From the NCBI GenBank assembly GCA_947085185.1, contig CAMTVK010000017.1:32001-96000 (forward strand): DNA of 64,000 nt. Direction: 5' to 3'. Under the pieces are notes generated by a model. That model saw only the letters and a list, made by a program, of their open reading frames with translations, ran no database searches and was not told where the DNA came from. Origin of the DNA: Candidatus Fraserbacteria bacterium. GTDB taxonomy: Bacteria; Bipolaricaulota; Bipolaricaulia; RBG-16-55-9; DRXL01. Positions 5,201 to 31,786 of the stretch are shown here, in pieces; position 1 is the first letter of the stretch; each line of letters opens with the position of its first letter. The translations under genes and the position numbers were made by a program.

Positions 5201-5376
5201 CGTCGGTTCGTCCTCCTTACATACAGTGTCATATAGTGTGCCTTAGTCTAATAGTAGTCCGAATCACGCCCAAGGACAAAGACTTTCTTAAGTGCGGACG
5301 TTGGGCACCAGACGAAGGAGCAACTTGCGCACGCCTCCCCCCCCTCTGGTATAATACGGCACCAAAGGGGGTGGCT

Positions 5377-6282
5377 ATGGCACGGGTGAGGCACATATGC
5401 GATTTATCAGAACTGACCGAATCTTTTATCAACTCTCTCGACGTCAACCCCGCCTCCATACGCACCTATCGCGAGGGGTTGAAAAATTTCCTCAAGTGGC
5501 GCAATGGCAAGCCTCCGGAAGCGTTGGTCACGCAGAGTGAGATCAAGCTCTATAAAGAATGGTTACGCCAGTGTCGTGCGGCCAACACGGTGGCGACATA
5601 TCTGGTCGCACTGAGAAGGTTCTTTCAGTACTGCGTCGCTGAGGGGGTTTATCCCGAAAACCCAGTGGACAACGTGAAGGGGATTCGGCGGCCACGCGGA
5701 CATTTACGCCAAGACATCTCGCGCGAGGGCCTGCGGGCGCTCTTCGATTCTGTCGATCGTACGACGCTCATGGGGAAGCGCGATTTTGCTATGATGAATT
5801 TAATGGCCCGCAACGGCCTGCGCGTCATCGAGATCGTGCGAGCCAACGTGGGGGACATCGAGAACCGTCGCGGGCGCCAGATCTTAAGAATTTGGGGGAA
5901 GGGCCGCGACGAGCGCGACGAGTTTGTCGTCTTGGCTGAGCCGACGGTGCAGGCGCTCGAAGAATGGCTGGCGGCGCGCGGGGGAGCCAAGTCCAGCGAC
6001 CCGCTCTTTATAGGGGTGCGGGCCCGCAACAAGGGCGGACGCCTCACCACCCGCCAGGTCAACCGTATTATCAATAGATATTTGATCAAGACCGGGCTAA
6101 AGAGTGAGAAGATCTCTCCGCACAGCCTGCGGCACAGCTTCGTGACCCTTGCGATCCAAGGGGGGGCTTCTATCATCGAGGCACAGATCGCCGCAAGACA
6201 TCGTTCCATCGAGACGACACGGGTCTACTTTCACGAGCACGACCGCTTGGAATCCCCTACGGAGGACAAGATCTTGATCTAA
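5377..6282 (+). CDS. Tyrosine recombinase (XerC/XerD-like)
   Basis: SAM-like N-domain, GLR, GKG, HSLRH and RH..IETT.VY catalytic residues; TATAAT at 5350-5355 supports a start at 5371/5377. Confidence 0.93.
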   Translation: MARVRHICDLSELTESFINSLDVNPASIRTYREGLKNFLKWRNGKPPEALVTQSEIKLYKEWLRQCRAANTVATYLVALRRFFQYCVAEGVYPENPVDNVKGIRRPRGHLRQDISREGLRALFDSVDRTTLMGKRDFAMMNLMARNGLRVIEIVRANVGDIENRRGRQILRIWGKGRDERDEFVVLAEPTVQALEEWLAARGGAKSSDPLFIGVRARNKGGRLTTRQVNRIINRYLIKTGLKSEKISPHSLRHSFVTLAIQGGASIIEAQIAARHRSIETTRVYFHEHDRLESPTEDKILI

Positions 6283-13817: not shown

Positions 13818-16738
13818 TCACGGTCTCTTGAGAGCAAACTTCACAAAGCTCCGGCCTTGAGTCTCCGGTCCGAGGATCGGCTGGGCATAACCTGCCGTGA
13901 CCTCGACCGACAAGCTGGCAAGCGGGAGAACTATGAAGTTCAACTCCACTCCCACCTCCGCCTTGAGAGAGTCCAAAGGCTCTTCTATCGTCCAGGCGCG
14001 GCCCCCGCGCACGAAGAGACTTATCCTGATCTGATCCAGCTTGGCTAAGTTCAAAAGCGAGAAGTCGAGATCTCGTGCCAGAGGCGGCAAGCGGAGCCGC
14101 AACTCGCCAAAAGCCTTCCGATCTCCAAGCTCGCGCCCTTTGAAAGATTCTAGCTCGGTCAGTGTGAACTTAAACGGCTCTGGCAGCATCCCTAGCCCCG
14201 CTCCTCCCATCACCGTTGCATCCAGATAGACCCACGGTGCCAATCGAAAACGCTTGAAGCCTGTCCAGCTCAGCCGCCAGAAGGGTTCATCATTCCGTTG
14301 CTCGCCCAACTGCTGGCCCACTTGCAGGGAGAAGGTGTGCTGCATGAAAAGCTGGTATAGATCGGAGCGAATGTAGTCTACCCCAACAAAGCTCACCAGC
14401 CTAGAGAGTTCTCCCCGGGCTCCCATCGAGACCTTCACGGTGTTAGCCGGCCACCAGTAGCGCCCGGCTACTGTGACGAGTGGGTGTTCATAGAACGTCC
14501 AACTGAAGCTGAGTCGCAGGTCTAAGTTCCCTGCTCGGGTAGCGGGATCGAATTGGGTCAGGCTTGTCCGTATCTCCAGGGTATCCACGCCGAAGCTTCG
14601 GCCCCCGTCTACCCTGAAGATCCCTATAGCGTTCCAGCGGAACTGCTTGTTGGTGTCAACTGCAGGGAGCAGGGAGAGACTCCATTGCTGATCGGTCCGA
14701 AAACGCCCGGAGATTCCTAACGGCGATATATCAATTACATAAGCGTCCAAAGGGAGCTTGTCTTTAATTTCACCGCCGACGAAGGGCCAATGGACTAAAA
14801 TCCGTTGAGGGAAATGATTGTTAAAGCGGTTGATGTCCGGGCTCATCTCCTGCGGATCAACATGGACTGCTTTGATAGGCGATGAACTCTTGAAGGTGAC
14901 CGTTCCTTGCGGGGCGTCTCCCACCCACTTAGTCTCTAGCACTTCCCCTTGAGCAGTTGTAGCGCGTACCGTAACGGGATAATTCGCATCGCCCTGCTTG
15001 CTCAAGAAAATGGTCGTCTCATAGCCTTCAGAGATCTTTTGAGATGCAAAGCGCTCGACAGCTATGTCTAAGAAGCAAGCTCCGTAGAGCCAACAATCAA
15101 AGAAATCTTTGAGATCTTGCCCTGAGAGCTCCTCGGCCACCACGCGGAAGGCCTCCGTTGTAATGATCTTATGGCGGTAGCGGTTATAAGCTTCTCGGAT
15201 GACAGTAAAGAATGTCTCGCGGCCCAGTAGGCCCTCCAGAGCGCGTAATACTAAGTAACCCTTGTTGTAGATGCGTACTCCAGCGGCGTTCAGATAATCA
15301 AGCTTCTTGTGCGGTTTAACAATCGCTTCATCCCAGCCCCTCTGGAAGACCTTAAGATAGGGTAGCTCAAGGGTGTGACGGCGCGCATTCAGGAAACCAA
15401 CTTGAGACTTGAGGAGTTGCTCCAACAGCCCCGGGCCCAGGTGATTGAAGAGATTAGGCTCGAAAGCCCCGTATTTGGCCTCGAAGTAGGTGAAGGTAAA
15501 GTAATGGGCAAAGGCTTCAGCGAGCCAACCCTCTGCACTCCAATCACTCCATGTGCCAAGGCCCCACCACAGGTGGGCTAGCTCGTGGGCTACAAGCAGC
15601 TCCAGGTTGCGATCAAGAAAGCCGGGGACAGGGATGTCTTTCAAGCGGTAGGCTGAACTCCCTAAGACGATGATCCCATCCGTGGCCGTCCCGACGAAGC
15701 CGTAGAGGCCGGAGGCGGGCCGCTCGGCGATTACTAATCGCTTGTATCCAGAGGGGCCAAAGCGTTCTGTGTAGAAGTCTAATACTTCTGCAGCATAAGC
15801 GGCCGCCAAGCGCCCATAGCTCTCCCCACCCGGCAGATAATACGAATCAATCACGACGTCGCGATGGTGGAGGCGATAGAGCTCTAGCCCTTTGCCAATG
15901 AGGAGCAACACAGAGCGAACAGGAATGTCACTGCTGAGGCGAACGATCTTCCACTCGTTCTCTTGAGCGACGATCTCTTGCTCTTCCGCTCCGCTGACCA
16001 CGGTGAAGTCGCGTGGCACCCTCAATTCGACATCGTGATAGGCTGCTGGAAGCACGAACTGCTCCTGTTCAATGACTTGGGGTGGGATGGCTATTGGGTG
16101 CCAACCGAAGCGCCAGAGATAGACCCCGTTGTAAAAGACGCCATCTCCCCCGAGGCCCCCATCTGTCCAAGCAGTATGGGTGAACTTGCTCTCAAACTCG
16201 ATTTGGATCACAGCGCGTTCCCCTGGGGTGAGAGGCTGAAGCAGCTTGACCCGGAGCACAGTGTCTTCCAGCGAGAAGGTCCATAAGATTGGATCACAGC
16301 GCGTTCCCCTGGGGTGAGAGGCTGAAGCAGCTTGACCCGGAGCACAGTGTCTTCCAGCGAGAAGGTCCATAAGAAGGGCCGCATCGCCTCCAGCCGGAAG
16401 CGCAATGGTTGGCCGTGGGAGTCGGCCACAGACAGGATCTTCGTCCAGGTTGGGTCGAAGCCATTGGGATAAGTCTCATCTATATAGGCTGGGTGTCGGT
16501 AGGGATTGGGGTGTCGGGCCAAGTTGCCCAAAAGCCAGAAGGTGACTGTCTCCAGCGTTTGGCCCGTATCGTTGAAGTAGTCTAGTACCAAGCTCCCGCT
16601 GAGCGTCTGCCGCGCCGGATCGAAAACCACACTGATTTTGTACCGACTGAAATCAGCTTGAGCGCGGGCAGAAGAAGCCCAGACAACGCAAACCAATCCT
16701 AAAATCAAGAGACTAGCTACCGCTTTTCTCATACGCAC
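13818..16738 (-). pseudogene. M1 family (gluzincin) aminopeptidase with C-terminal beta-rich domain, frameshifted by an 86-bp tandem duplication
   Basis: ORFs 16208-16738 and 13818-16370 together are colinear with the intact paralogue at 36489-39284; HELAH...E motif, IYNKG. Confidence 0.85.
16203..16374. repeat. Perfect 86-bp tandem duplication
   Basis: 16203-16288 is identical to 16289-16374 (ttggatcacagc...ggtccataaga). Confidence 0.95.
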
Positions 16739-17571: not shown

Positions 17572-20500
17572 ATGGCGCGGCTGGAGATTCGACTCTTGGG
17601 CGACGTTGAGGCCCGGCTCGATGGAGCGCTTTTGAGATTTCCCACTCAGAAGGCCCAAGAACTCTTCGCTTATCTTGCGCTTCACCATGAGCATGCCCAT
17701 CCGCGCTTGGCCTTGGCGGCTCTGCTTTGGCCGGAATCCGACGAAGAGAAAGCAAAAGTCAACTTGCGCAAGACGCTCTCCCGCCTACGCTCGCTGTTTG
17801 TGCAAGATGAGCACTGGCTGGACTTCTCCGGCAGTGCCGTGCGCTTAAAAACCCAAGAGTGCTGGATCGACACAGCAGAATTCGAGCGCCTGATCGCGCT
17901 CTCGCCCGGTGACCCAAAAGAAAGCGAGAGAGCCTTAGAAGACGCCGTCGCGCTCTATCGCGGCCCGTTCTTGCAGGGAGTCTATGAAGACTGGGCACTC
18001 ATAGAAGCCGAGCGCTTCCGGACGCTCTATCTTGAAGCTTTGGAGAGGCTTGCCAGTGCCTATCAGGCCCGCGAAGCCCATGAGAAAGCTCTTCAGACCT
18101 GGAAGCAAGTACTCACTGTGGTGCCGTGGCATGAGCGGGCGCATCGGGAGCTCATGACGCTCTATGCCCGCACCGGAGACCGCACCGCAGCCCTTCATCA
18201 ATATAGAGAGTACTGCTCAGCTCTTCAGAGGGAGCTGGGCATCCCTCCACTCCCTGAGACTCAGTCCCTGTACGAGAAGATTTTACAAGGGGCTCTGCCA
18301 GAGCCAGCTCGGATCGTTGCGCTTCCCAGGGAAATCCCATTTGTCGGGCGCGAGCGCGAGTGTCATGTGCTGCAGACCCTGTGGCAGCAGGTCTGTCAAG
18401 GGGAAGGACAATCTGTGATGCTCGGGGGCGAGGCCGGCGTGGGCAAGACCCGCTTGGTGGAGCACTTTATAGAGCTCGCAGCAAGAAGAGAGATCACAGT
18501 GCTCCGCGGCGCCGCCTCCACGAACGAGTTGCCCTACGCGCCCTTGCTCCAAGCCGTGCGCGCGGGTCTTCGCTCTATCCCCGTGGCTCAGCTCTCCCAG
18601 CTGCCCAGGCTCTACCGGAGCGAGCTGGCGCCCTTTGTCCCAGAGCTCTCTGAGCGCTTCCCCGATCTCACGCCCAATCCGGTTCTGCCGCCCGCCCAGG
18701 GCAAAGCCCGCTGGTTCGCGGCTCTGTGTGGGTGTTTTGAGCTCTTGGCTCGCGAGCGCCCGGTGATACTCTTTCTTGATGATCTGCACTGGGCCGATGA
18801 CGCGACTTTCGAGCTCTTGAGCTATGTGATGGCGCACCTGAAGTCTTCCAGAATCTTCCTGATCGGCACGTATCGTCTTGAGGAGACCGCGCGTGCACCC
18901 CTGCGCCAGTGGCTCGCTACTGTTGGGGCAGCACGCGCGTATCAGCCGCTGATTCTGAACCGACTCTCACAAGAAGAGGCCAATCTCTTGCTCCAGCGCT
19001 GGCTGGGCGGCAAGACGGATGCGCTCGCCGCTGCTCTTTATAACCAGACTGAAGGGAACCCGCTCTTTCTCATGGAGCTGGTCCATTCGCTGATGCGCAG
19101 CGGGGCGCTGGTCCAAGATGAAGGAGGGCGCTGGGGGCTGACCGTTGGGGAGATCGGCTCTGCGCATCTGTCGGAGAGCCTTCGTGGAGTGATCGACGCT
19201 TCGGTGCAGCGCGTGCCGCAGCATGCCCAAAATCTGATAGGGTTGGCGGCCGTGCTCGGGCGTGCCTTCGAGCTGCCGGTTCTCAAAGAGATCCTGCGTC
19301 AGCCCGAAGGGAAGATCCTGGAGCATCTGGAGCACCTTCAGGCCGCGGGCTTGATCGGTGAGCGTGCGGGGCGCTATCAGTTCCATCACGAGCTGATCAG
19401 ACAAGCCGTCTACGAGGAGCTGCGCCCCGATCGCAGAAGGCTGTGGCACCGCAAGGTCGGGCAGGCGTTGGAAGAGCTCTATCCGGAGCGCTCAGACGAA
19501 CTCGCTGGGGAGCTGGCGGAGCATTATGAGCGGGCGCAGCTTTGGGCAAGAGCTATACACTATGCGATGCGGGCTGGGGCGCGCGCCGCACGCTCCTACG
19601 CCTATGGCGAAGCCCAGAGATTCTACGCCAAGGCCATCGAGCTCTGTGAAGCTTTCGCGAGCAGAAAAGCGCTCTCTGTCCGGTGGCAGCACACCCGGCT
19701 CGAGCTCTACCGGCGCTATCTCAGCCGTGAGGTCTTCCCCACGATCTATGATCTCAGGAGGGCACCTCAGGAGCTGCGCCGCCACATAGCGCAGATGATC
19801 GCGGTCGCGCAAGAGCTCAAAGATATGAAGGCCCTCTGCGAGGCGTACCAGCATCAAGCGAGATTAGAGTTAGCCGCTGGACAGCCCAAAGCCGCTCAAG
19901 ACGTCATGCGTCATGCTTTAGCTGTGGCGCGGCGGGCTCACGATCCCGCGCTGCAAGCCGATGTCCTGCAAGGGGTGGCGAGCATGCGCGCCCGCTGTGG
20001 CGAGTATCGTCAGGCTATGATCGAATATCAACGATATGTTGAGGCCCTGGCCCCCTTGGGCGATGCGCGACGATTGGGCTATGCTCTCAATGATTTAGCG
20101 CTCACCCAGCGGGCTTGTGGAGATTTTGCGCAAGCGCAGAAGACCCTCAAGAGGGCCAACGAGCAGTTCCAGCGGGCGGGGGATCTGTGGGGGCAGGCGG
20201 CCGTCGCGGACAACCTCGGTTGTATCTGGCGTGATCTGGGGCGCTATGCGGAAGCGGAGAGCTCGCTGCAGCGTGCGCTCGAGCTCAATCAAGCGACCGG
20301 GGACCATCGTGGGGTGGGGTGCAGTCTTGTAGATTTAGGGACTTTGCGGAACGATCAAGGGCGCTATGAGGAAGCCCTGGAGTTTCTTGATCGGGTCGTG
20401 GCGATGGTGGATCAACCGGGCATGAAGGGGCTAGAGATCGAGGCATGCTCGGAGAAGGCGCGGGCGCACCTGGGGCGAGGGGAGCTGGCGCTCGCGCTGG

Positions 20501-20754
20501 AGTATTCGACGCGCGCGATGCGATTGTTAGAGGCGCATGGGGGCGTAATCGAGCAAGCGTACAGATTCTACTTTACCCACGCTTGTATTTTACAGCAGTT
20601 GGGGCAGCAGGCCGAGGCGCGGCGTTATCTCAAGGGAGCTTGCAAGCGCTTGCAGCAAGCGGCTGGGCAAGCTCCCACTGCCGAGCTGCGCGAAAATTTT
20701 CTGCACAATGTGCCTCTGCATCGTCAGATCCTGGCAGCTTACTATAATCAATAG
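17572..20754 (+). CDS. SARP/BTAD - AAA (STAND) ATPase - TPR transcriptional regulator (AfsR/DnrI-like)
   Basis: N-terminal wHTH (LEIRLLG...LLWPE), BTAD (LYRGPFL...W; ERAHRELM), FVGRERE, Walker A GEAGVGKT, Walker B LFLDDLHWAD, GNPLFL, C-terminal TPRs. Confidence 0.93.
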   Translation: MARLEIRLLGDVEARLDGALLRFPTQKAQELFAYLALHHEHAHPRLALAALLWPESDEEKAKVNLRKTLSRLRSLFVQDEHWLDFSGSAVRLKTQECWIDTAEFERLIALSPGDPKESERALEDAVALYRGPFLQGVYEDWALIEAERFRTLYLEALERLASAYQAREAHEKALQTWKQVLTVVPWHERAHRELMTLYARTGDRTAALHQYREYCSALQRELGIPPLPETQSLYEKILQGALPEPARIVALPREIPFVGRERECHVLQTLWQQVCQGEGQSVMLGGEAGVGKTRLVEHFIELAARREITVLRGAASTNELPYAPLLQAVRAGLRSIPVAQLSQLPRLYRSELAPFVPELSERFPDLTPNPVLPPAQGKARWFAALCGCFELLARERPVILFLDDLHWADDATFELLSYVMAHLKSSRIFLIGTYRLEETARAPLRQWLATVGAARAYQPLILNRLSQEEANLLLQRWLGGKTDALAAALYNQTEGNPLFLMELVHSLMRSGALVQDEGGRWGLTVGEIGSAHLSESLRGVIDASVQRVPQHAQNLIGLAAVLGRAFELPVLKEILRQPEGKILEHLEHLQAAGLIGERAGRYQFHHELIRQAVYEELRPDRRRLWHRKVGQALEELYPERSDELAGELAEHYERAQLWARAIHYAMRAGARAARSYAYGEAQRFYAKAIELCEAFASRKALSVRWQHTRLELYRRYLSREVFPTIYDLRRAPQELRRHIAQMIAVAQELKDMKALCEAYQHQARLELAAGQPKAAQDVMRHALAVARRAHDPALQADVLQGVASMRARCGEYRQAMIEYQRYVEALAPLGDARRLGYALNDLALTQRACGDFAQAQKTLKRANEQFQRAGDLWGQAAVADNLGCIWRDLGRYAEAESSLQRALELNQATGDHRGVGCSLVDLGTLRNDQGRYEEALEFLDRVVAMVDQPGMKGLEIEACSEKARAHLGRGELALALEYSTRAMRLLEAHGGVIEQAYRFYFTHACILQQLGQQAEARRYLKGACKRLQQAAGQAPTAELRENFLHNVPLHRQILAAYYNQ

Positions 20755-20828
20755 CACTCATCGTGTGATGCTGACGGCAAGACCGTCCATCACCGTGGCT
20801 TTTTGCTGATTTTCGTGGGCTTTTCGTG

Positions 20829-20862
20829 TTGTCACGCTTTTGTCACGCCCCAGGGATATACT
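20829..20862 (+). promoter_or_regulatory. SARP-type promoter: 9-bp direct repeats with 11-bp period, 8 nt upstream of a -10 box
   Basis: TTGTCACGC at 20829-20837 and 20840-20848; TATACT at 20857-20862; ATG at 20870. Confidence 0.7.
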
Positions 20863-20869
20863 CGTCCTA

Positions 20870-21148
20870 ATGATCCATATGTTCGAGCTCTACAAGCCAG
20901 GGAGTGTCCCCGATGAGCGGCTCTGCGCGCTGATGCAGCAGGCGCGCCGCAGTGCTCTCCAGATTGAGGGCGTCTACGACCTGGCGCTCTACCAGACCGA
21001 TCGGGACGGGCTCTGGCAGTGCAGCGTGGATGTGGAGGACGCACAGACGTGGGAGCACGTGCGCGCGCGCGTGCAGCGGCTTCTGGAGGAGCTCAAGGCT
21101 CTGGGAGTGGAGATCGTTCATGAGGACCAGTGGGAGCGGCGCGTCTAG
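20870..21148 (+). CDS. Small hypothetical alpha/beta protein (leaderless)
   Basis: 92-aa ORF with good codon usage, starting 7 nt after TATACT. Confidence 0.75.
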   Translation: MIHMFELYKPGSVPDERLCALMQQARRSALQIEGVYDLALYQTDRDGLWQCSVDVEDAQTWEHVRARVQRLLEELKALGVEIVHEDQWERRV

Positions 21149-21178
21149 AGATTTTCAGATCCTAAGGAGGGATCAACG

Positions 21179-22297
21179 ATGTTCAAGTGCACCAAGCAGG
21201 TCGGAGCGGTCGTGCGGTCGTTCGGTCTCGGCGTGTTGGCGTTCGCGGTGCTGGTCGGGCTGACGGTCTCGGCGCAGCAACAGCAGTTGGCTCAGCCGGT
21301 CACACAAATTAAGATCGTCCCGGAGAAGCCGTCTCCCAATGACGAGATCAAGATCGAGCTGTCGGGGACCTTCCCCAATTTTTGCGCTCCGGATTCCGCC
21401 ACGGCCCAGGTCGAGCTCAACCAAGTGACGATTGAGACATCCAACGTGAGCCAGTTCTGTGCCGAAGGGGAGACCAAGTGGAGCCTGAGCGTCCCTGTAG
21501 GCAAGAAGCTCGAAGCCGGCCCCTATCGCGTGCTGGTGCTCTTCAGGATGACCAAGGAGCCGCCGGACTTCTTGCTGGGCATGGCGCGCTTCGATGTCGC
21601 CGAGAAGAGCGGAAGCGCCGATCAAGCTGGTCAACCGAGCCCATTGGTCCCATTCACCTTCCTGCCCGTGGTCCAGACGCCCGACAAGAACACCGTCGTC
21701 CCAGTGTCCTTTCGCGTGACCACCGTCAGGGGCGGCAAGAGCAATGGCGATAATCGAATCGGGGGGACGGTGGGCGTCTCAGTCGGCGAGGTGGTCACGC
21801 TCAGCAATATCAGCACGGCGAAGAGCCAAACTTTTCGTGTTACAGGCTGCCAGGCTCAAGACGTTCGGGTCGAAGGTGGTTGCCGTCCTCCTTTTCCGCC
21901 CAAGGAGATCAAGCTGGAGATCACCGGGCCGGATCCGTACTTGGAGCTGTTCATCGAGCAGACAGAGCTGCCGGACTTGGCGGTGCGCATCAGTGCTAAC
22001 GTGCGGCGCTACACCGAGATGGAGCAGGTCTTCTGTGACATCACCGTCCTCACGACAGCCAGTAATCTCGGCAAGGGACCGGCCGGAGCAGTGGCATTGA
22101 GTACTAAGATCAATACCAGCAAATCACAAGTCTTTCGCTACGGGATGGGCAGCGACGGCGGCAATGCGACACAGGTGGATTTCTTGACCCGCCTGCGCCC
22201 CGGATCGTATCCGTTAGAAGCTGAAGTCGAGAGCCTCAGCATCAAGGAGAGCAATACGGCGAACAACAAGGCGAGCCAGGTCGCGGTCTGTCGGTAG
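21179..22297 (+). CDS. Secreted beta-rich protein with CARDB/Ig-like C-terminal domain
   Basis: TAAGGAGG SD, signal peptide (VSA|QQ), LPDL...IKESNTANN CARDB-like motif, Cys pairs. Confidence 0.85.
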   Translation: MFKCTKQVGAVVRSFGLGVLAFAVLVGLTVSAQQQQLAQPVTQIKIVPEKPSPNDEIKIELSGTFPNFCAPDSATAQVELNQVTIETSNVSQFCAEGETKWSLSVPVGKKLEAGPYRVLVLFRMTKEPPDFLLGMARFDVAEKSGSADQAGQPSPLVPFTFLPVVQTPDKNTVVPVSFRVTTVRGGKSNGDNRIGGTVGVSVGEVVTLSNISTAKSQTFRVTGCQAQDVRVEGGCRPPFPPKEIKLEITGPDPYLELFIEQTELPDLAVRISANVRRYTEMEQVFCDITVLTTASNLGKGPAGAVALSTKINTSKSQVFRYGMGSDGGNATQVDFLTRLRPGSYPLEAEVESLSIKESNTANNKASQVAVCR

Positions 22298-22411
22298 ATA
22301 CGCAGCAAACTGAATCAAAAAGGAGCGTGAACTACAATGCTACAAAGTCTTATGACGGGCTTAGCAAAGTCGTTCAATCTACTTCACATCACCACCAGGA
22401 GGGTGATTCAG

Positions 22412-23209
22412 ATGACGTTCGTCACGAAGCAGAACGCCGGCTTACTGAAGTCGGTGCGCAGTTGGGGAGTGCTGGGGTTGCTCCTGGTGCTCGCGGTATT
22501 TGTTCTTGTTCAGAACGCCCAGACTCAGGTAGGTACTGATGGGATTATACCACCTGGCGGCTATGTAGCGGCCAGTGAACCTGGTGGTGCGCGAATCTTG
22601 GGCGATCAGGGAAACCTTCCGACCAATCCGGCTATCGGTTTCTTCAGCACCTGTCCGTCACCACCGACGGTGCGCTGCAATGATGGCGGGGGCGGCAACG
22701 GCATCTTCAGACCGCTCGCCAACGTCATGGCCTTTGCTACCTCAAGTCAAGAGCGGATGAGGATTGGCCCTGGTGGCTGGGTCGCCATCGGTGCCACGGC
22801 TCCGTCCGCAGGCGCGCTGCTCACCGTCAACGGACACATTCATGCCGCCGGAAACATTACTGGCGCCGCCAAGATGTTCGTGCAGGCTCATCCCCTTGAC
22901 CAAACCAAAGAGATCGTCTATGTCTCTCTGGAAGGGCCGGAGGCCGGCACCTACATTCGCGGCACGGCGCAGCTCACTAACGGCGAAGCAGTCATTGAAC
23001 TGCCGGAGCACTTCAGCTTGGTCACCAATGACCAAGGCTTGACGGTGCAGCTCACGCCGTTTGGTGAGTTGCTCCAGCTCTACGTCGTGGAGAAGAGCGC
23101 CAAGCGAATCGTCGTGCGCGAAGCGAATGGCAAGAGTGGGCAGTTCGATTATCTCGTGCAAGGTGTACGCAAGGGATATGAGAACCATCAAGTAATCCGG
23201 GACAAGTAG
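22412..23209 (+). CDS. Secreted protein with tail-fibre-like segment and conserved C-terminal domain
   Basis: AGGAGG SD before ATG 22412; signal peptide; ERMRI..G.VAIG repeat; K.FVQ.HP....KEIVYVSLEGPEAGTYIRG domain. Confidence 0.85.
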   Translation: MTFVTKQNAGLLKSVRSWGVLGLLLVLAVFVLVQNAQTQVGTDGIIPPGGYVAASEPGGARILGDQGNLPTNPAIGFFSTCPSPPTVRCNDGGGGNGIFRPLANVMAFATSSQERMRIGPGGWVAIGATAPSAGALLTVNGHIHAAGNITGAAKMFVQAHPLDQTKEIVYVSLEGPEAGTYIRGTAQLTNGEAVIELPEHFSLVTNDQGLTVQLTPFGELLQLYVVEKSAKRIVVREANGKSGQFDYLVQGVRKGYENHQVIRDK

Positions 23210-23230
23210 TAGGCAGGATTAGAATGTAAA

Positions 23231-23261
23231 CGGGCGTCCGGGCCGCGCGCTCGGACGCCCG
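23231..23261 (+). repeat. Hairpin repeat copy R1 (first hairpin only)
   Basis: CGGGCGTCCGGGC-cgcgc-GCTCGGACGCCCG. Confidence 0.85.
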
Positions 23262-23305
23262 CCCCAAGCCAGAACGAACAGATCTAATAAAAGGAGTGAT
23301 AGACG

Positions 23306-23962
23306 ATGAAGTTCATCAAGACGAACGCCGGCTTCCTGAAGTCGGCGCGCAGTTGGGGAGTGCTGGGCTTGGTCCTGGCGCTCGCGTTCACGTTCGGATA
23401 TGCGCAGAGACCATTGCCATTGCCGTCTCTTATAGCTCTGCCTCCGGTTCCACCGCTGGCAGAGAAATTGGCTGGGTTAGGTCTTACTCATCCAGACCAG
23501 TTGGATGAGGCAACACGGAAACTAGATGCTCCTGCTCGCCTGCTGAATTTCAACCTAGCGACCCCTATGGACTTCTCAGCTATTCCAGGATTAGGAAAAG
23601 GTGTTTATGTCCCCATTCAGATAGCTAAAAGAGAAGGCGGTCGGCCCTCGCTGTACTTTCTTTCTCCTGGAGAGAAAACACTGGCGGGGATCTTCCTGGT
23701 CGGTGATGGGATGATGCTCAGATACATCACACGGGCAAGCGGACGTGGCGTACCTGCCCAAACCGGCGATGTCTATATAGAAGAGTGGACAAGTCGTGAA
23801 GGACAAGCGGTTTTCAAAGCCGAAGGAAAACTTGAGGTTACGGATCCTAAAACAGGATCAGGACGACTGGTTACGGAAGGACCCATATCGGGTCTTAGGA
23901 TAAGGATAAGGTGCACGTGGACAAATTGGAGTCAAACTCTCATCTGCGAAATCATACTCTGA
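23306..23962 (+). CDS. Secreted hypothetical protein sharing its leader with the 22412 gene
   Basis: AAGGAG SD; NAGFLKSARSWGVLGL leader; AT-richer mature region. Confidence 0.85.
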   Translation: MKFIKTNAGFLKSARSWGVLGLVLALAFTFGYAQRPLPLPSLIALPPVPPLAEKLAGLGLTHPDQLDEATRKLDAPARLLNFNLATPMDFSAIPGLGKGVYVPIQIAKREGGRPSLYFLSPGEKTLAGIFLVGDGMMLRYITRASGRGVPAQTGDVYIEEWTSREGQAVFKAEGKLEVTDPKTGSGRLVTEGPISGLRIRIRCTWTNWSQTLICEIIL

Positions 23963-23980
23963 GGGACGCACTGGAGGATA

Positions 23981-24068
23981 GGGCATCCGGGCACACGCTC
24001 GGACGCCTGCTCAACGAAATCACGGACGGATCGGCGGGGGCCGGGCGGAAACACGCTCGGCCCCTGTG
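23981..24068 (+). repeat. Double-hairpin repeat copy R2
   Basis: GGGCATCCGGGC-acac-GCTCGGACGCCT...AACGAAATCACGGACGGATCGGCG...GGGGCCGGGC-loop-GCTCGGCCCC-TGTG. Confidence 0.9.
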
Positions 24069-24072
24069 CGCT

Positions 24073-24483
24073 TTAGGCGATTGGCATTACGATCACGTCT
24101 TTGGCCAAGATCGGCCTTTTGGTCGTCCCGTCTCGGCTAAACTCGATCAGCCCGGCCATCCGCAGTGCCCGTAGATCGCGCGACACACTCTCTAAGCTGC
24201 GCCTCACGGCCCGCGCCAGCTCGGAGACCGAAGTGATCTCTTTGCTCCGCAAAGTTCGCAACAGCTCCAGACGCCTTGGGGTCAGTATCCGATGCTGGGC
24301 CTGCTCGGATAAAGAGAGCACGATCAACCGATCCGGAGCTAAGTCGGGCTGTGCCAACGCCCCGCGCAACAGATGTCCAAAAAACTCCAAAGCCGCGTCT
24401 GCGCGCGCGCTCAGCTTACGAGAGTTTCTTGGCTCTTTTGAACCTCTCAAGGTAATCCCTCTAGTTCGCTTTAAGATCTTCAT
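24073..24483 (-). CDS. HTH DNA-binding protein (HVO_A0114-like), putative antitoxin
   Basis: ILTPRRLELL...SVSELARAVRRSLESVSRDLRAL...GLI...KRP pattern. Confidence 0.8.
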   Translation of the reverse strand: MKILKRTRGITLRGSKEPRNSRKLSARADAALEFFGHLLRGALAQPDLAPDRLIVLSLSEQAQHRILTPRRLELLRTLRSKEITSVSELARAVRRSLESVSRDLRALRMAGLIEFSRDGTTKRPILAKDVIVMPIA

Positions 24484-24739
24484 AGGCTGCCGTTAAAGCT
24501 TCTGCCGGACTCTTGCCGGCGAAAGGCCGGCGTTCCCTATGCTCCTCCGAAATCCAGAACTTGTGACAATGAATGTATCCATGCGCGCTATCGCAGCGGT
24601 AGACATCCCAGCTTGCTTCTTCCGTTTCATATGCGAGATTCACGCTGAACTGCGTCACTTGACCCTTGGAGATGCGGAACCACACGTCGATTCGGACACC
24701 CGCCTCCTCCAGAAAGACCGTCCAGTGCTTCCGTTTCAA
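24461..24739 (-). CDS. Putative toxin with R.D.AHG..H motif (DUF7718/DUF6516-like), possibly truncated by a TAG
   Basis: YRCDSAHGYIHCH; overlaps the HTH gene; promoter TTGACA-17-TAAGCT at 24749-24777. Confidence 0.7.
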   Translation of the reverse strand: MKRKHWTVFLEEAGVRIDVWFRISKGQVTQFSVNLAYETEEASWDVYRCDSAHGYIHCHKFWISEEHRERRPFAGKSPAEALTAAYEDLKAN

Positions 24740-24802
24740 AGCAAGAACAGCTTAGCATACTTAACGCGCAATGTCAAGCTAAGGCGACGCAGAGGATATG
24801 AT

Positions 24803-24897
24803 GGCCTCCGGGCCGAGCGCTCGGGCGCCCCGCTCGCGAAATCAAGAACGACTCAGCGGGGGCCGGGCAGCAGTGCGCTCGGCCCCTGTGGCTTTTT
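24803..24897 (+). repeat. Double-hairpin repeat copy R3
   Basis: GGCCTCCGGGC-cgagc-GCTCGGGCGCCC...CGAAATCA...GGGGCCGGGC-loop-GCTCGGCCCC-TGTGGCTTTTT. Confidence 0.9.
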
Positions 24898-24968
24898 GGG
24901 GCTTGTGACACATCGCTTTTTAGGAGAGGGAGACTACAGTGCGGCCCGCCATCAAAATCTGTGAACGG

Positions 24969-25751
24969 CTATCGCTTCCTCCGCCGGGGAGGCCTAGCCC
25001 TCTCCACCGCCGGCTGATACGAAGCAACGAGCAACATCTCTTCCCCAGCAGCCTCTAGCGCCGACAGATCAATAAAGTAGCCGAACATCAGCGGCACTGG
25101 CTCCCCCGGCAACTGCGGCGCTATCGTTTGCAGCAGCCTCTGAAACTGCTGTACCTCGCGGGCGTAGATGCGCGATTTCACTTCCCCTAGCACTACCACC
25201 CGACGCTTAGCGCGCCGCCCTTCCCCGTAGAGATCGACCTCGACCACCTGCCCATCGGCTTGAAAGAGGCGGCGTTCCAAGCGCTCCACCGTGATTCCAT
25301 AACGCTTTTGGAGATAGCCCGGCAGCACCAGGCGGGCGATATCTTCTAAGCCATAGCCGATATTCTCGGCCAGGGCGCCCACTTGAGTGGCCAACTGCTG
25401 CAGGGCCTGCTCGGTGCGGGCCTGAGCTTCGGCCAGCCGCGTCAGAGCTGCTTCGACACGGTCCATGCGCTGCTCGGTGCGGGCTTGCGCCTGAGCCAAT
25501 TGCTCGAGGCGCTGCTCGGTGCGGGCTTGCGCTTGAGCCAATTGCTCGAGGCGCTGCTCGGTGCGGGCTTGCGCCTGAGCCAACTGCTCGAGGCGCTGCT
25601 CGGTGCGGGCTTGCGCGGCTGCCAGTTGAGCCACCGTCTGGCTGAGCCGGTCGAAGTCCTCGCGGCCAACACGGATATCTTTGAGCCGGTCGTCTACCAC
25701 GGTGACGATGGCCCGATACATCTCGGCGGTCAGGCCCGAAGATTCTGCCAT
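24969..25751 (-). CDS. Coiled-coil repeat protein with C-terminal PD-(D/E)XK-like domain (DUF3782-like)
   Basis: LAQAQARTEQRLEQ 14-aa repeats; GYGLED, EVDLYG...LGEVKSR nuclease-like motif. Confidence 0.85.
   Translation of the reverse strand: MAESSGLTAEMYRAIVTVVDDRLKDIRVGREDFDRLSQTVAQLAAAQARTEQRLEQLAQAQARTEQRLEQLAQAQARTEQRLEQLAQAQARTEQRMDRVEAALTRLAEAQARTEQALQQLATQVGALAENIGYGLEDIARLVLPGYLQKRYGITVERLERRLFQADGQVVEVDLYGEGRRAKRRVVVLGEVKSRIYAREVQQFQRLLQTIAPQLPGEPVPLMFGYFIDLSALEAAGEEMLLVASYQPAVERARPPRRRKR
25467..25616. repeat. 42-bp coding tandem repeat (about 3.6 copies)
   Basis: GCGCTGCTCGGTGCGGGCTTGCGC recurs at 25467, 25509, 25551 and 25593. Confidence 0.93.
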
Positions 25752-25793
25752 AATTATAATAATAGTCTATGTCGGTCACGCCCGCAAGCGACG

Positions 25794-25890
25794 GGGCGTC
25801 CGGGCCAAGCGCTCGGGCGCCCGCCCAACGAAATCACGGACGGATCGGCGAGGGCCGGGCGGTAAGCACGCTCGGCCCCCTTGGCTTTTT
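25794..25890 (+). repeat. Double-hairpin repeat copy R4 (terminator-like 3' end)
   Basis: GGGCGTCCGGGC-caagc-GCTCGGGCGCCC GCCCAACGAAATCACGGACGGATCGGCG AGGGCCGGGC-loop-GCTCGGCCCC CTTGGCTTTTT. Confidence 0.9.
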
Positions 25891-25994
25891 ATTTCCTGAT
25901 GAGATCTTACCCCATGCGCTTGCCCACAAGGTTTGCCCAGCTGCGGTGCCGCTGCTGTTGCTATGCTCCGCTTTGGTGTCTATAATAGCCCGCT

Positions 25995-26639
25995 ATGAAT
26001 GGCTTTTACAAGGCTCGCGTTTTTCTGGTCCGTCACGGCGAAACCCAATGGAACGCGGAGCTGCGCGTCATGGGGCAATTGGACATCCCGCTCAACGAGC
26101 GTGGTCGCGCCCAAGCGCGCCGCACCGCACAGCTGCTCGCACGCGAACAGCTCGCTGCGATCTACTCGAGCGATCTGGGGCGCGCCGTGGAGACAGCTCA
26201 GATCATCGCCGCCCCACATCGCCTGGACGTGATCACCATTCCGGAGCTACGCGAGGCATACTATGGCGCTTGGGAAGGCCTCACCAGACAAGAAGTCCTC
26301 GAAAGATTCCCCCAAGAGTATCAGAGGCGCCGAACTGATCCAGAAAACTTTCGCCCCTCCGGCGGGGAGAGCCGCCGAGAGCTCTATGAGCGCGCGTCAA
26401 AAATTTTCTCTGACCTTGTCGCTCGTCACCCCCATCAAAAGATTCTGATAGTGAGCCACGGCGGAACGATTCGGGCGATCCTGCGCTTCGTGTTGGGCCT
26501 TGGCCCAGGCAACGGGCACTTCGCTGTAGACAATTGCGGGATCACGATCATTGACAGGGAAGAAGACGACTCTTACGAAGTCTTCACAGTGAACTCTGTC
26601 TTCCATCTTGGGGAGCTGCGCACGGAGGATTTTTTCTGA
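25995..26639 (+). CDS. Histidine phosphatase (phosphoglycerate mutase family)
   Basis: LVRHGETQWN, SSDL.RA, GES, VSHGG. Confidence 0.95.
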   Translation: MNGFYKARVFLVRHGETQWNAELRVMGQLDIPLNERGRAQARRTAQLLAREQLAAIYSSDLGRAVETAQIIAAPHRLDVITIPELREAYYGAWEGLTRQEVLERFPQEYQRRRTDPENFRPSGGESRRELYERASKIFSDLVARHPHQKILIVSHGGTIRAILRFVLGLGPGNGHFAVDNCGITIIDREEDDSYEVFTVNSVFHLGELRTEDFF

Positions 26640-28785: not shown

Positions 28786-29505
28786 CTAGCGCGGGCTGCC
28801 AAAATACCCGTTCATAAACCCGATCTCACTGGGGGGCCAGACTTTCAAAAACGGCTCCCCAATAAAATTTTTCTCGTACACGAACGGGAAGTCCCAGAAG
28901 CGTCCGTCTAAGCTATTGCGGCTGTTGTCTCCTAACACAAAATAGTGCCCCGGCGGGACTGTCAACACCTGATCGCCCATCTTCCCCGAATTATAGTAAC
29001 ATCGGCGCTCCGGATTGGGATGATTTGGATGATTGAACGCATCGTCGATCATGGGGACGCCGTTGACGTAGACATAACAATCTTTGATCTGAACGGTCTG
29101 CCCGCCCACGGCGATCAGCCTCTTGACGTAGCGCACCCAGCGCGGAGCTTCGTCGGTCCCCTCGTTGTGCCAGAAGACAATGATATCGCCGGGCTTGGGC
29201 TTGCGAAAATAGAACGAGATCTTATCGACAAAGAACGAGCTGCCCGGCATGATCGTGGGCTCCATCGAGCCTGTGGGCACGCGCATCCGCACGATGACAA
29301 AATTCATGGTGATGAGCGCTAAAGCTATAGCCACGACGATGATCTGCAGCCAGTCTAGGGCCCACTCAACGCTGGGGCTGGTCTTGATCCCACGCCGATT
29401 GAGCAGCTGAGCCAGCCACGGCTTGGGGCGCTCCTCCTCAGGGACTATCTCGACGCGGGGAGCCTCACTGGGAACGGGATCGGTGGGCTTGAGATCGTCA
29501 GACAT
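28786..29505 (-). CDS. lepB: Signal peptidase I
   Basis: GSMEPT, YVKRLIA, GDNSRNSLDGR. Confidence 0.96.
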   Translation of the reverse strand: MSDDLKPTDPVPSEAPRVEIVPEEERPKPWLAQLLNRRGIKTSPSVEWALDWLQIIVVAIALALITMNFVIVRMRVPTGSMEPTIMPGSSFFVDKISFYFRKPKPGDIIVFWHNEGTDEAPRWVRYVKRLIAVGGQTVQIKDCYVYVNGVPMIDDAFNHPNHPNPERRCYYNSGKMGDQVLTVPPGHYFVLGDNSRNSLDGRFWDFPFVYEKNFIGEPFLKVWPPSEIGFMNGYFGSPR

Positions 29506-29858
29506 TACTTGGTGCTGGCTTCAAGGGCTTGCCGGCGTAGATAGTTCAAGCGCGCCCGACGCGCACGCCCACGCTCGACCACTTCGATCTTGGCGATCCG
29601 CGGCGAATACAGCGGAAAGATCTTCTCGACGCCGATCCCCGAGGAGACCTTTCTCACGGTGAACGTCTTGCTCGTGCCGCTGCCGGCACATTTTATGACG
29701 ATCCCCTCAAAGATTTGGATGCGCTCGCGGCCCTCTTTGCCGCCCTCGCCACCTTCGATCACGCGCTCGTGAACGCGGATCGTATCTCCGGGACGAAACT
29801 CCGGAAGGTCCTTCTTCATGAACTCTTCCTCGATCTGACGAATGAGGTTCATGTCCAT
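29505..29858 (-). CDS. rplS: 50S ribosomal protein L19
   Basis: [40 protein letters not shown]. Confidence 0.98.
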
Positions 29859-29871
29859 AGCAGCTCACCCC

Positions 29872-30444
29872 TTACGTTCTTTCGTAGTCGCGTCGTCCGC
29901 GCAACCGATCTAAAATAATAGCGACTGCCGCGCGCACCGACAAGTGATTGTACTCCGTCGGCCCCCAGATCGGGGGTAAGAAGTAATCAACCCGATCCAG
30001 CACTTCCAGGGCCAATCCCCACCCGGTCCCAAAGAGCACATAGACGGGGCGGGGATCGGTCTCGATCAGCTCATGAAGCTGCTTGTAGCTGATGCGTGTC
30101 CCCGGCAGCTCTCGAGCATCGGTGCCCACAAGCACCGGGGCGAGGCCCTCGCGCTCGAGGACTTCTTTAAGACTGGTCTCCAGCTTATCAACAACGCGGG
30201 CCAGTTGCAAGGCCGGCCGTCGGTATGCGACATCCGGCTCGGCCTTGAGCCAGAAATCTATCAGTTTCTGGGCGATAGCCTGTTGGCTGGGCAAGGGGGT
30301 GACGATAAAAAACTGTGCGACGTTATACGTACAAGCGCTGCGCGCGATATCCGTCACATCAATGGGGGTGATCATCGTCGTGACGATCTTATCATGGCGA
30401 TCTCGACAGGGGTAGTGCACCAACCCAATATAGAGATTGCCCAT
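29872..30444 (-). CDS. SPOUT RNA methyltransferase (TrmD C-terminal-associated family)
   Basis: LVHYP, DIARS..TY, FGTGWGL, YNHLSVRAAVAIILDRL. Confidence 0.9.
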   Translation of the reverse strand: MGNLYIGLVHYPCRDRHDKIVTTMITPIDVTDIARSACTYNVAQFFIVTPLPSQQAIAQKLIDFWLKAEPDVAYRRPALQLARVVDKLETSLKEVLEREGLAPVLVGTDARELPGTRISYKQLHELIETDPRPVYVLFGTGWGLALEVLDRVDYFLPPIWGPTEYNHLSVRAAVAIILDRLRGRRDYERT

Positions 30445-30454
30445 ATGGACCTCT

Positions 30455-30485
30455 CCCCTGCCCTCCTAGGGGAGGAGGGCAGGGG
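30455..30485. repeat. GC-rich intergenic palindrome (REP-like hairpin)
   Basis: CCCCTGCCCTCCT-agggg-AGGAGGGCAGGGG, 13-bp perfect stem. Confidence 0.8.
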
Positions 30486-30492
30486 GTGGAGG

Positions 30493-31176
30493 TTAGGTTC
30501 CTTTCAAGAGATCCGGCCTGTTTTTCAGAGTCTTCTCCAGCGCCGCGCGACGGCGGAACTCTTCAATTTTTTTGTGATCGCCCGTGAGCAAGACCTCGGG
30601 GACACGCAAGCCGCGAAACTCCGGGGGACGCGTATATTGAGGTGGCCCCAGAAGTCTTTCGTTATAGAACGAATCGTGCTCGAGTGACTCGTGCTTGCCC
30701 ACAACCCCAGGCACCAATCGGGCCACACACTCCGCGACGACCGCTGCGGCCGCCTCGCCTCCACTGAGGACATAATCCCCGATAGAGAGCTCATCCGTGC
30801 AGATGTGCAAGACGCGCTCGTCCACGCCCTCATAGCGCCCACACAGCAATATAATCGCGTGCTCTTTGGCGAGCTCTTTAGCGATCTGCTGCGTAAAAAG
30901 CCTGCCCTGAGCTGACAGCAGAATAACTCTTGGCTCGACGGTGAGTTGGCTCTTGATAAATTCTACAGCGCGGAAGAACGGCTCCGGCTTTAAGACCATC
31001 CCCGGGCCGCCACCATAGGGACGGTCATCGACCTGACGATGCTTATCCGCCGTGAAATCCCGGAGATTATGAAGATAGATCTGGAGAATACCAGCCTGGC
31101 GCGCCGCACCGATCACACCCGCGGCGAAGAATCCCTCAAGCATATGGGGAAAGATCGTGACTATGTCAATGCGCAT
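30493..31176 (-). CDS. trmD: tRNA (guanine37-N1)-methyltransferase
   Basis: VDDRPYGGGPGMV, CGRYEGVDER, SIGDYVLSGGE, YTRP. Confidence 0.98.
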   Translation of the reverse strand: MRIDIVTIFPHMLEGFFAAGVIGAARQAGILQIYLHNLRDFTADKHRQVDDRPYGGGPGMVLKPEPFFRAVEFIKSQLTVEPRVILLSAQGRLFTQQIAKELAKEHAIILLCGRYEGVDERVLHICTDELSIGDYVLSGGEAAAAVVAECVARLVPGVVGKHESLEHDSFYNERLLGPPQYTRPPEFRGLRVPEVLLTGDHKKIEEFRRRAALEKTLKNRPDLLKGT

Positions 31177-31483
31177 GGCGCATCCGCGGTCGGCCATGCC
31201 GGCGCCTGTCGCGCTTGGCCGCACGCGGCGGTGGTACCGGCCGCGCCTCGATCACGTCTAAGATCACTTCCTTGCCGAGCGTCGCCCCAATTGCCCCTAG
31301 CACATCCCGAATCGCCTCAGCCGTCCGACCGTTCCGTCCCACCAGCCGCCCCATCTCCTCTGGCGCAACGCTGATCGTGAAGATATCGGCCTTGGGTGTC
31401 TCGATGCGCTCGAGCGTGATCTTCTGTGGCGCGTCCACGAGCGCCCGAATGAGATAATGTAAAGCCTCGAATATCCGGTTCAC
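31166..31483 (-). CDS. khpA: KH-domain RNA-binding protein
   Basis: MGRLVGRNGRTAEAIR; canonical position after rpsP. Confidence 0.9.
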   Translation of the reverse strand: MNRIFEALHYLIRALVDAPQKITLERIETPKADIFTISVAPEEMGRLVGRNGRTAEAIRDVLGAIGATLGKEVILDVIEARPVPPPRAAKRDRRRHGRPRMRHAH

Positions 31484-31755
31484 ACGCGTGCTTTGCTCTG
31501 GCGCTGCTTGTGAAATTCAGCCAGGATGCCCTTCTTGGACAGCAGATGCCGCGCTGTCTGCGTCGGTTGCGCTCCCAGACCTAACCACATCAGCGCCTTG
31601 GCCGTGTCAATCTCATACTGCCCGTGCAAGACGTCGTACCACCCTAAATCTGCAACTACCCGACTGTCGCGCTGTCGCGACTCCTCAATCACCACGATCC
31701 GATACGACGGCTGCGACCGTCGCCCGGTCCGCTTGAGCCTGATCTTGACAGCCAT
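31480..31755 (-). CDS. rpsP: 30S ribosomal protein S16
   Basis: MAVKIRLKRTG...YRIVV, WL..GAQPT. Confidence 0.98.
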   Translation of the reverse strand: MAVKIRLKRTGRRSQPSYRIVVIEESRQRDSRVVADLGWYDVLHGQYEIDTAKALMWLGLGAQPTQTARHLLSKKGILAEFHKQRQSKARV

Positions 31756-31786
31756 AGCTTCTCGTTCCTCCTCAAAGATATATGAG

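What the first reader, a model, noticed from the sequence alone, without database searches (positions are those of the whole stretch)
22412..23390. Conserved leader module fused to unrelated payloads (polymorphic secreted proteins)
Seen in sequence: genes 22412 and 23306 share about 80 nt of highly similar DNA encoding NAG(L/F)LKS(V/A)RSWGVLGL.L.LA. They then diverge completely around the predicted cleavage site, and the mature region of 23306 is visibly more AT-rich than its leader. Gene 21179 has a more distant version (MFKCTKQVGAVVRSFGLGVL). Signal peptides normally diverge faster than mature domains, so this is the reverse of expectation. Inference: payloads are swapped behind a fixed leader by recombination, or the leader is a dedicated export/processing signal.
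Basis: partly seen in the sequence, partly recalled or inferred. Interest (0 to 1): 0.7.

Follow-up and report, generated by a model that had tools for sequence, protein, structure and literature searches.

The report
Swappable secreted genes behind shared leader
In an uncultured Bipolaricaulota bacterium and its relatives, unrelated genes begin with the same DNA module encoding a predicted export signal; the gene behind it differs even between otherwise near-identical DNA, likely by recombination at the shared module, and an adjacent sensor-type regulator likely switches the set on.

Summary
Confirmed and extended. The leaders of 22412 and 23306 are 86% identical over 85 nt, while their mature parts are unrelated (phage-tail-fibre-like versus a predicted beta-barrel; profile match 0.1%). 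The leader recurs in 13 of 35 genomes of the order; 31 leader genes fall into 18 mature-region clusters. Identity collapses at one codon position. Two metagenome contigs are 99.96% identical up to the leader, carry different payloads, then rejoin at 100%. The array lies behind a promoter with an 11-bp direct-repeat box of SARP geometry, next to a BTAD-AAA-TPR (AfsR-like) regulator. Best reading: homology-anchored payload exchange in a regulated secreted-protein array (0.7). A dedicated export pathway is unlikely: the same payloads use ordinary signal peptides elsewhere. No integrase or attC was found. Closest known: Borrelia erp genes. This scan noted the same leader-and-hairpin arrays before in another genome (e1-899775); the regulator/box link and the strain-level swap were not in the lines shown to me. 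New variant of a known kind; interest 0.5.

The parts
17572..20754 (+). AfsR-like large SARP regulator (BTAD + AAA_16 + TPR), 1060 aa; likely activator of the array
   Evidence: Pfam BTAD E 3e-29, AAA_16 E 1e-30, TPR; AfsR NCBIfam match far below its cut-off; OmpR-type HTH not detected by Pfam; similar regulators precede the array in relatives
20830..20847 (+). direct-repeat box, 7+4+7 nt (11-bp period); predicted operator
20857..20862 (+). predicted -10 hexamer TATACT, 9 nt after the second heptamer
   Evidence: 37 of 44 distinct boxes have TAnnnT at this exact offset
20870..21148 (+). small ORF (92 aa) that travels with the locus; function unknown
   Evidence: homologues at the same loci in G001, G007, G008, G009, G012; no family
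21179..22297 (+). predicted secreted protein 1 (372 aa), distant leader, C-terminal CARDB-like Ig domain
   Evidence: E 1.4e-4, just under cut-off; orthologues in G006 and G014
22317..22380 (+). likely decayed, in-frame copy of ribosome site plus first half of the leader
   Evidence: aligns with intact leaders; also upstream of leader genes in G015 and L128
22412..22498 (+). leader copy A: predicted Sec signal-peptide n/h region; predicted hairpins 22435-22456 and 22467-22492
22412..23209 (+). predicted secreted protein 2 (265 aa), phage-tail-fibre-like payload
   Evidence: PHROG 17490 E 5e-16, 28536 E 9e-13, 9942 tail fibre E 6e-4; nearest Atlas clusters all viral; 413 homologues, mostly C-terminal half
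23231..23305 (+). junction module: GC hairpin (23231-23261) + linker + ribosome site, the left half of the repeated element running into a leader
   Evidence: fold z -3.05; hairpin+UTR+leader 88% identical over 157 nt to a junction in L131
23306..23389 (+). leader copy B; predicted hairpins 23326-23347 and 23358-23383
23306..23962 (+). predicted secreted protein 3 (218 aa), uncharacterised family, predicted beta-barrel, foreign-looking codon use
   Evidence: 141 relatives; AlphaFold2 pLDDT 97; best structural Z 7.8 to generic beta-barrels; GC3 0.43
23978..24075 (+). full two-hairpin repeat, copy 1 (end of array; terminator-like)
   Evidence: fold z -4.7; found only at this locus in this genome
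24073..24739 (-). toxin-antitoxin-like pair (DUF7718 + HVO_A0114 HTH) between two repeat copies
   Evidence: TA role recalled, not tested
24800..24897 (+). full two-hairpin repeat, copy 2
24969..25751 (-). coiled-coil heptad-repeat protein between two repeat copies
25790..25890 (+). full two-hairpin repeat, copy 3

Best explanation
The shared leader is part of a reusable gene front end (hairpin, ribosome site, predicted signal peptide) that heads many unrelated genes in Bipolaricaulota and likely serves as the recombination anchor at which payloads are exchanged, in an array likely activated by the adjacent AfsR-like regulator. Steps: (1) shown: same front end, unrelated payloads, one breakpoint zone, allelic swap in near-identical DNA, orphan, fused and tandem leader copies; (2) inferred: incoming DNA pairs at a leader/junction repeat and resolves at a second shared repeat (ordinary homologous exchange) or at micro-homology (homology-facilitated illegitimate capture), so a foreign gene gains expression and Sec export in one step; (3) inferred: frequent exchange plus selection on two mRNA hairpins keeps the leader alike at silent sites; (4) inferred: the BTAD-AAA-TPR protein binds the 11-bp repeat box and turns on the surface/secreted set in response to an unknown signal.
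For: 31 leader genes, 18 mature-region clusters, one of them a leader fused to the next gene's start. Among 51 pairs of long leaders with different payloads, nucleotide identity per codon is 0.56-1.00 up to codon +11 from the Trp, 0.35 at +12 and 0.21-0.36 from +15. L135 and L136 are 99.96% identical over 2560 nt to the leader end, differ in payload, and are 100% identical over 636 nt after. A contig of run X6 carries a 22412 homologue joined directly to the end repeat, without the 23306 unit (side 39 nt), and contigs of X5, X7, X8 leave the window's sequence at 22497-22499 or 23386. The 23306 payload sits behind the 22412-type front end in G015. GC3 falls from 0.89/0.93 to 0.44/0.40 across the two junctions. 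Four-fold sites: leaders of G000 vs G014 48/59 and 54/65 identical, against 0.40 of 407 sites in 3 shared genes and 101/267 in the regulator. Box: 52 matches in 21 of 35 genomes vs 3 for the reversed control; 37 of 44 distinct boxes have a -10-like hexamer at a fixed offset, 21 of 44 lie within 2 kb of a regulator match; this is the SARP geometry described in PMC10936776 and PMC5930380 (passages).
Against: No recombination was observed directly; all evidence is comparative, from metagenome assemblies, and L135/L136 are two contigs whose reads I could not inspect. Several joints have sides under 30 nt and may come from other repeat copies. Members were first found by DNA search, which inflates silent-site identity; against G015/G010 leaders it is only 5/11-8/13 versus 0.44 background. 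Leader folding energy is not unusual against dinucleotide shuffles (z -0.87, -0.80), RNAalifold recovers only hairpin 2 with 0 of 10 double changes, and pairs with a double change are 4 vs 3.2 shuffled (184/500). 23 of 44 boxes had no regulator within 2 kb in the DNA held, so another OmpR/PhoB-type factor could bind them. Binding, export and expression are untested.
Confidence: 0.7

Rival explanations
1. The hairpins in the leader and between genes are sites for a structure-recognising recombinase (attC- or REP-like), making this an integron-like cassette system that inserts units site-specifically.
For: Half element - gene - full element at 23231/23978, and TA-like and coiled-coil genes each bracketed by same-orientation copies; the repeat occurs only at this locus in G000; sharp breakpoint zone; top strands fold better than bottom strands as DNA; TA-like modules recur at these loci.
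Against: No recombinase beside the array: nearest is a XerC/D-like ORF at 5137-6282, 52 bits vs 265 cut-off for integron integrase; no Y1 transposase found in G000; no RYYYAAC/GTTRRRY ends by eye (recalled definition); breakpoints vary (end of h-region, after the cleavage site, within a Gln/Pro linker); no excised circle seen (contigs only).
Confidence: 0.12
2. The leader is conserved mainly because its mRNA hairpins pace translation or protect the transcript during export; recombination is a by-product of having conserved repeats.
For: 90.7% of 572 cells pair vs 38.5-43.9% in slid controls, 18 double-change cells vs 6.4 shuffled; codon-randomised controls give 6.3 of 10 and 4.6 of 7 pairs vs 9.6 and 6.7 observed; G-U pairs are on the sense strand; Gly codon GGA in 19 of 19 leaders vs 13% genome-wide. 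Not exclusive of the best explanation.
Against: Structure was chosen from these same, related sequences; overall stability is ordinary; 21179 and other leader families at the same loci lack or were not shown to have it; no RNA data.
Confidence: 0.3
3. The peptide is a dedicated sorting signal (like YSIRK or ESPR leaders, recalled) for a lineage-specific export route.
For: Conserved RSWG(V/A)LG motif before the h-region; restricted to one order in my searches.
Against: Among 264 fetched proteins only 5 score above 50 bits on the leader profile, the next 5.2; other relatives of the payloads have unrelated signal peptides or none; the n-region is absent in short forms; silent sites are conserved; no secretion gene co-occurs at the loci read.
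Confidence: 0.08
4. Simple tandem duplication followed by fast divergence of the mature parts.
For: The genes are adjacent and co-oriented.
Against: Each payload has its own widespread family, different predicted folds and no profile similarity.
Confidence: 0.02

Closest known systems
Borrelia burgdorferi erp (OspE/OspF/Elp) genes with the upstream homology box
   Same: One promoter/operator + leader sequence joined to many independently derived external parts, reshuffled by recombination, co-regulated (PMC10016077, passages).
   Different: erp genes are lipoproteins on cp32 prophages of a pathogen; here no lipobox Cys, chromosomal tandem arrays in free-living Bipolaricaulota, predicted hairpins inside the leader codons and between genes, and an adjacent SARP-STAND regulator. 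No sequence relationship was tested or is expected.
C-terminal displacement / homology-facilitated illegitimate recombination arrays (Rhs, CDI, Vibrio cholerae T6SS effector-immunity arrays)
   Same: A conserved 5' anchor lets unrelated 3' parts be captured, building arrays with leftovers (PMC5361080, passages).
   Different: Anchor is only about 85-190 nt and encodes a signal peptide; payloads are whole surface-type proteins; no toxin domain or immunity gene was found; leftovers are orphan leaders rather than orphan C-termini.
AfsR / large SARP regulators and their promoters
   Same: BTAD-NTPase-TPR architecture; heptamer repeats with 4-nt spacer, 11-bp period, 8-9 nt before -10 (PMC10936776, PMC5930380, passages).
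   Different: Outside Actinomycetota; predicted targets are variable secreted-protein arrays, not antibiotic clusters; heptamer is T(G/T)TCACG; binding untested.
Integron cassette arrays / CALINs (recalled)
   Same: Variable single-gene units and TA-like pairs between directly repeated imperfect palindromes.
   Different: No integron integrase, no attC end motifs seen; the repeat supplies ribosome site and signal peptide, so cassettes are gene fusions.

Membership tests
erp-like conserved-front-end surface gene family (works like) | shared leader on non-homologous mature proteins | tested here: met
erp-like conserved-front-end surface gene family (works like) | shared promoter/operator upstream | tested here: met
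   conserved box and -10 upstream of the arrays; function not assayed
Borrelia erp (membership) | lipoprotein leader with lipidated Cys, on cp32 prophage | tested here: not met
   no Cys at the leader end; housekeeping neighbours; leader pattern 0 matches in viral contigs
Integron | integron integrase next to the array | tested here: not met
   nearest tyrosine recombinase 14.5 kb upstream, 52 bits vs 265 cut-off; two more on contig C30 not classified
Integron | attC sites (RYYYAAC...GTTRRRY, bottom-strand hairpin) | tested here: inconclusive
   end motifs not seen by eye, no Rfam match; no attC model was run
Large SARP (AfsR-like) regulon | BTAD + NTPase + TPR regulator | tested here: met
   not an AfsR equivalog by score; N-terminal OmpR-type HTH not detected by Pfam
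Large SARP (AfsR-like) regulon | 11-bp-period direct repeats about 8 bp upstream of -10 | tested here: met
   37 of 44 boxes with hexamer 9 nt after the heptamer, usually 8 after a following C
Large SARP (AfsR-like) regulon | regulator binds the box and activates transcription | not testable with these tools
   needs binding or transcription assay
Polymorphic toxin system | C-terminal toxin domain with downstream immunity gene | tested here: inconclusive
   of 19 payloads from relatives scanned, 8 match LamG, DUF11, SdrD_B, GEVED or DUF4114 and 11 match nothing; no toxin family; none for the three window genes
Sec/SPase I signal peptide | basic n-region, hydrophobic h-region, small-residue cleavage site | tested here: inconclusive
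   pattern present by eye and payload homologues have signal-like starts at the same place; SignalP not available; no twin-Arg, lipobox or prepilin motif seen (motifs recalled)

The most novel reading that the evidence does not exclude
An integrase-free cassette system in which the recombination site is a hairpin written into signal-peptide codons, so that every captured foreign gene (phage fibres included) becomes a secreted protein and falls under a STAND-type sensor-activator: an inducible, evolvable surface repertoire across Bipolaricaulota.
Probability: 0.15. Interest if true: 0.85.

Novelty: new variant of a known kind. Interest (0 to 1): 0.5.

Why it matters
It shows, in a phylum without cultured models, how foreign or phage-derived genes can be turned into exported proteins in one recombination step, and it offers candidate targets and an operator for the abundant, unexplained AfsR-like STAND regulators of this group (up to 42 BTAD matches in one genome). 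The box, the leader hairpins and the allelic swap are each directly testable.

Tried and rejected
Simple duplication: rejected. Further close leader copies elsewhere in this genome: none; weak profile hits at C6 (an ABC-type binding protein start) and C17:31306 are not counted as members; DNA hits in G038 and G002 are unrelated genes. Rfam on 20700-26000: no match at E<=1. Viral contigs: 0 matches to the leader pattern. Single-sequence model of 22412 was poor (pLDDT 36), so its fold search is only a hint. 23306: no Foldseek PDB match at E<=0.001, no Z>=8, no Atlas hit; this does not show a new fold. The loose motif TCACG-N6-TCACG is not enriched within this genome alone (10 vs 4-18 for other spacers), and the generic promoter scan missed the site. 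No RNA holder listed among sequencing runs. No joints in runs X1, X2, X3, X5 at likeness 85. G020_C11 was dropped (wrong start coordinate). Paper searches (listings only) showed no description of this system; the library lacks most subscription journals and I opened no supplements.

Full report
Observation. The two leaders are real and far beyond chance: 88% over 74 nt ungapped, 85 nt at 85.9%, E 5e-22, with no third close copy in the assembly. In a crude baseline of 180 signal/TM-start ORFs of this genome only 5 pairs share N-terminal DNA, and three of the other four go on in similar mature sequence. A contig of run X1 spans both junctions without a difference (X1 may be the source). The organism belongs to Bipolaricaulota by its relatives: the nearest named homologue of 23306 is so labelled, and 7 of 9 genome records with the leader pattern are titled Acetothermia, Bipolaricaulota or Fraserbacteria; the other 2 bear other labels that I did not resolve.

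The payloads are unrelated. 21179 ends in a CARDB-like domain. 22412 resembles phage tail-fibre proteins (PHROG 17490, 28536, 9942; viral Atlas clusters), and most of its 413 homologues match the C-terminal half. 23306 belongs to an unnamed family of 141 representatives and folds confidently (pLDDT 97) into a beta-barrel with only generic matches (best Z 7.8; none by Foldseek). Profile comparisons give 0.1-0.4%. Of 264 fetched proteins only 5 carry the leader (above 50 bits, next 5.2); other relatives of the payloads start with unrelated signal-like peptides or none. So the leader was attached to these payloads within this lineage.

The leader is a family. A profile of 17 leaders matched 13 of 35 genomes of the order, up to 8 times in G014, weak hits included; a DNA search matched 14 of 61 relatives, 2 of them spurious; an exact pattern found 12 metagenome stretches and 0 viral ones. 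31 distinct leader genes with more than 60 residues after the Trp fall into 18 clusters by their first 125 or so mature residues, one being a leader fused onto the next gene's start. Payloads with Pfam matches (8 of 19 scanned) are LamG, DUF11, SdrD_B, GEVED, DUF4114 proteins, themselves domain mosaics. Identity among 51 pairs of long leaders with different payloads stays at 0.56-1.00 per codon to position +11 from the Trp, then falls to 0.35 and to 0.21-0.36 from +15. GC3 drops from 0.89 to 0.44 (22412) and from 0.93 to 0.40 (23306) across the junction; the 23306 payload (0.43) is below the genome's first percentile, 0.52.

Traces of exchange. L135 and L136 are 99.96% identical over 2560 nt up to the leader end, hold different payloads, and are 100% identical over 636 nt afterwards; L136 also has a 77-nt tandem leader. 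I could not check their reads, so a chimera is not excluded, but both payload arrangements have counterparts in G008 and G012. The 23306 payload lies behind the 22412-type front end in G015. In run X6 a 920-nt contig with a 22412 homologue joins the end repeat without the 23306 unit (side 39 nt); other such joints have sides of 27-30 nt and are weak; contigs of X5, X7 and X8 leave the window's sequence at 22497-22499 or 23386. Orphan or truncated leaders occur in G014, G020 and L131, and a decayed in-frame copy sits at 22317-22380 in the window.

The module is larger than the leader. 23231-23389 (hairpin, linker, ribosome site, leader) is 88% identical over 157 nt to a junction in L131, where such units separate successive payloads. 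The hairpin is the left half of a two-hairpin repeat present three times at 23978-25890, nowhere else in this genome, and after payload genes in relatives; its right half looks like a terminator. Silent sites of the leader are conserved: G000 vs G014 48/59 and 54/65 four-fold sites, against 0.40 in 3 shared genes and 0.38 in the regulator; Gly is GGA in 19 of 19 leaders vs 13% genome-wide. Against this, members were first found by DNA search, and G015/G010 leaders give only 5/11-8/13. Prompted by an earlier scan note (e1-899775), I folded the leaders: two hairpins are predicted in most. Across 34 sequences 90.7% of 572 cells pair, vs 38.5-43.9% when slid, with 18 double-change cells vs 6.4 shuffled, but only 4 pairs with double changes vs 3.2; codon-randomised controls give 6.3/10 and 4.6/7 vs 9.6 and 6.7 observed. 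RNAalifold keeps only hairpin 2, with no double change, and total stability is ordinary (z about -0.8). The structure is likely but not proven to be selected.

Regulation. The array follows a BTAD-AAA-TPR gene here and in many relatives. Between them lies T(G/T)TCACG-N4-T(G/T)TCACG; a looser form has 52 matches in 21 of 35 genomes vs 3 for the reversed control. Of 44 distinct boxes in the DNA I held (fetched because of the box or the leader, so not an unbiased sample), 37 have a TAnnnT hexamer exactly 9 nt downstream and 21 lie within 2 kb of a regulator match. SARP operators are heptamer repeats with 4-nt spacers, 11-bp period, 8 bp from the -10 (PMC10936776, PMC5930380; passages only). That the neighbour binds this box is inference; PhoB/OmpR-type boxes have a similar geometry (recalled).

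Mechanism. Most likely (0.7) the repeated front ends and end hairpins act as homology anchors: a second shared repeat gives gene replacement, insertion or loss, micro-homology gives capture of new genes, as proposed for Vibrio T6SS arrays (PMC5361080, passages). A site-specific system (0.12) fits the half-site/full-site layout but lacks an integrase and a single breakpoint. An RNA role for the hairpins (0.3) can hold alongside either. A dedicated export route (0.08) fits poorly.

Comparison and verdict. The closest known case is Borrelia erp, where one promoter/leader was joined to many unrelated external parts (PMC10016077, passages); this works like erp but is not a member. Six paper searches (listings only, no supplements) showed no description in Bipolaricaulota. 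This scan has noted the same leader-and-hairpin arrays in another genome and analogous modules in other lineages (unchecked AI notes, seen as a few lines). New variant of a known kind; interest 0.5.

Noticed in passing
window 16203-16374: Exact 86-nt tandem duplication that splits the 5' part of a peptidase-M1-like gene (13818-16738, minus); assembly artefact or frameshift.
   Followed up: no
window 20857-20870: The predicted -10 ends 7 nt before the ATG of the small ORF, so that ORF may be leaderless; its homologues sit at either end of the variable region in relatives.
   Followed up: partly
L029 (G015) and L030 (G010): The same payload is 98% identical (217/223 four-fold sites) in genomes of two genera: very recent transfer or binning overlap.
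   Followed up: partly
L033, L036, L099, L100, L107, L135: Other recurring leader families (starting MFSS.. and MRK..) occupy the same regulator-adjacent loci.
   Followed up: no
L109-L114 (G024): Nine boxes in one genome with 27 BTAD matches; those fetched mostly precede large predicted secreted proteins, often far from a regulator: a possible genome-wide regulon.
   Followed up: partly
L022, L029, L030, L101, L104: A sigma/anti-sigma-like gene trio and TA-like pairs recur inside these arrays (labels by eye).
   Followed up: no
window 23306-23962: Unnamed protein family (141 representatives) with a confident beta-barrel model and no clear solved relative.
   Followed up: partly
window 25390-25629: 42-nt tandem repeats encoding the coiled coil of ORF 24969-25751; a similar protein lies next to an orphan leader in L026.
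   Followed up: no
window 28786-33088: Signal peptidase- and Ffh-like genes lie 5-9 kb downstream in the usual ribosomal cluster (by eye); also near the G006 locus but not the others read, probably coincidence.
   Followed up: no
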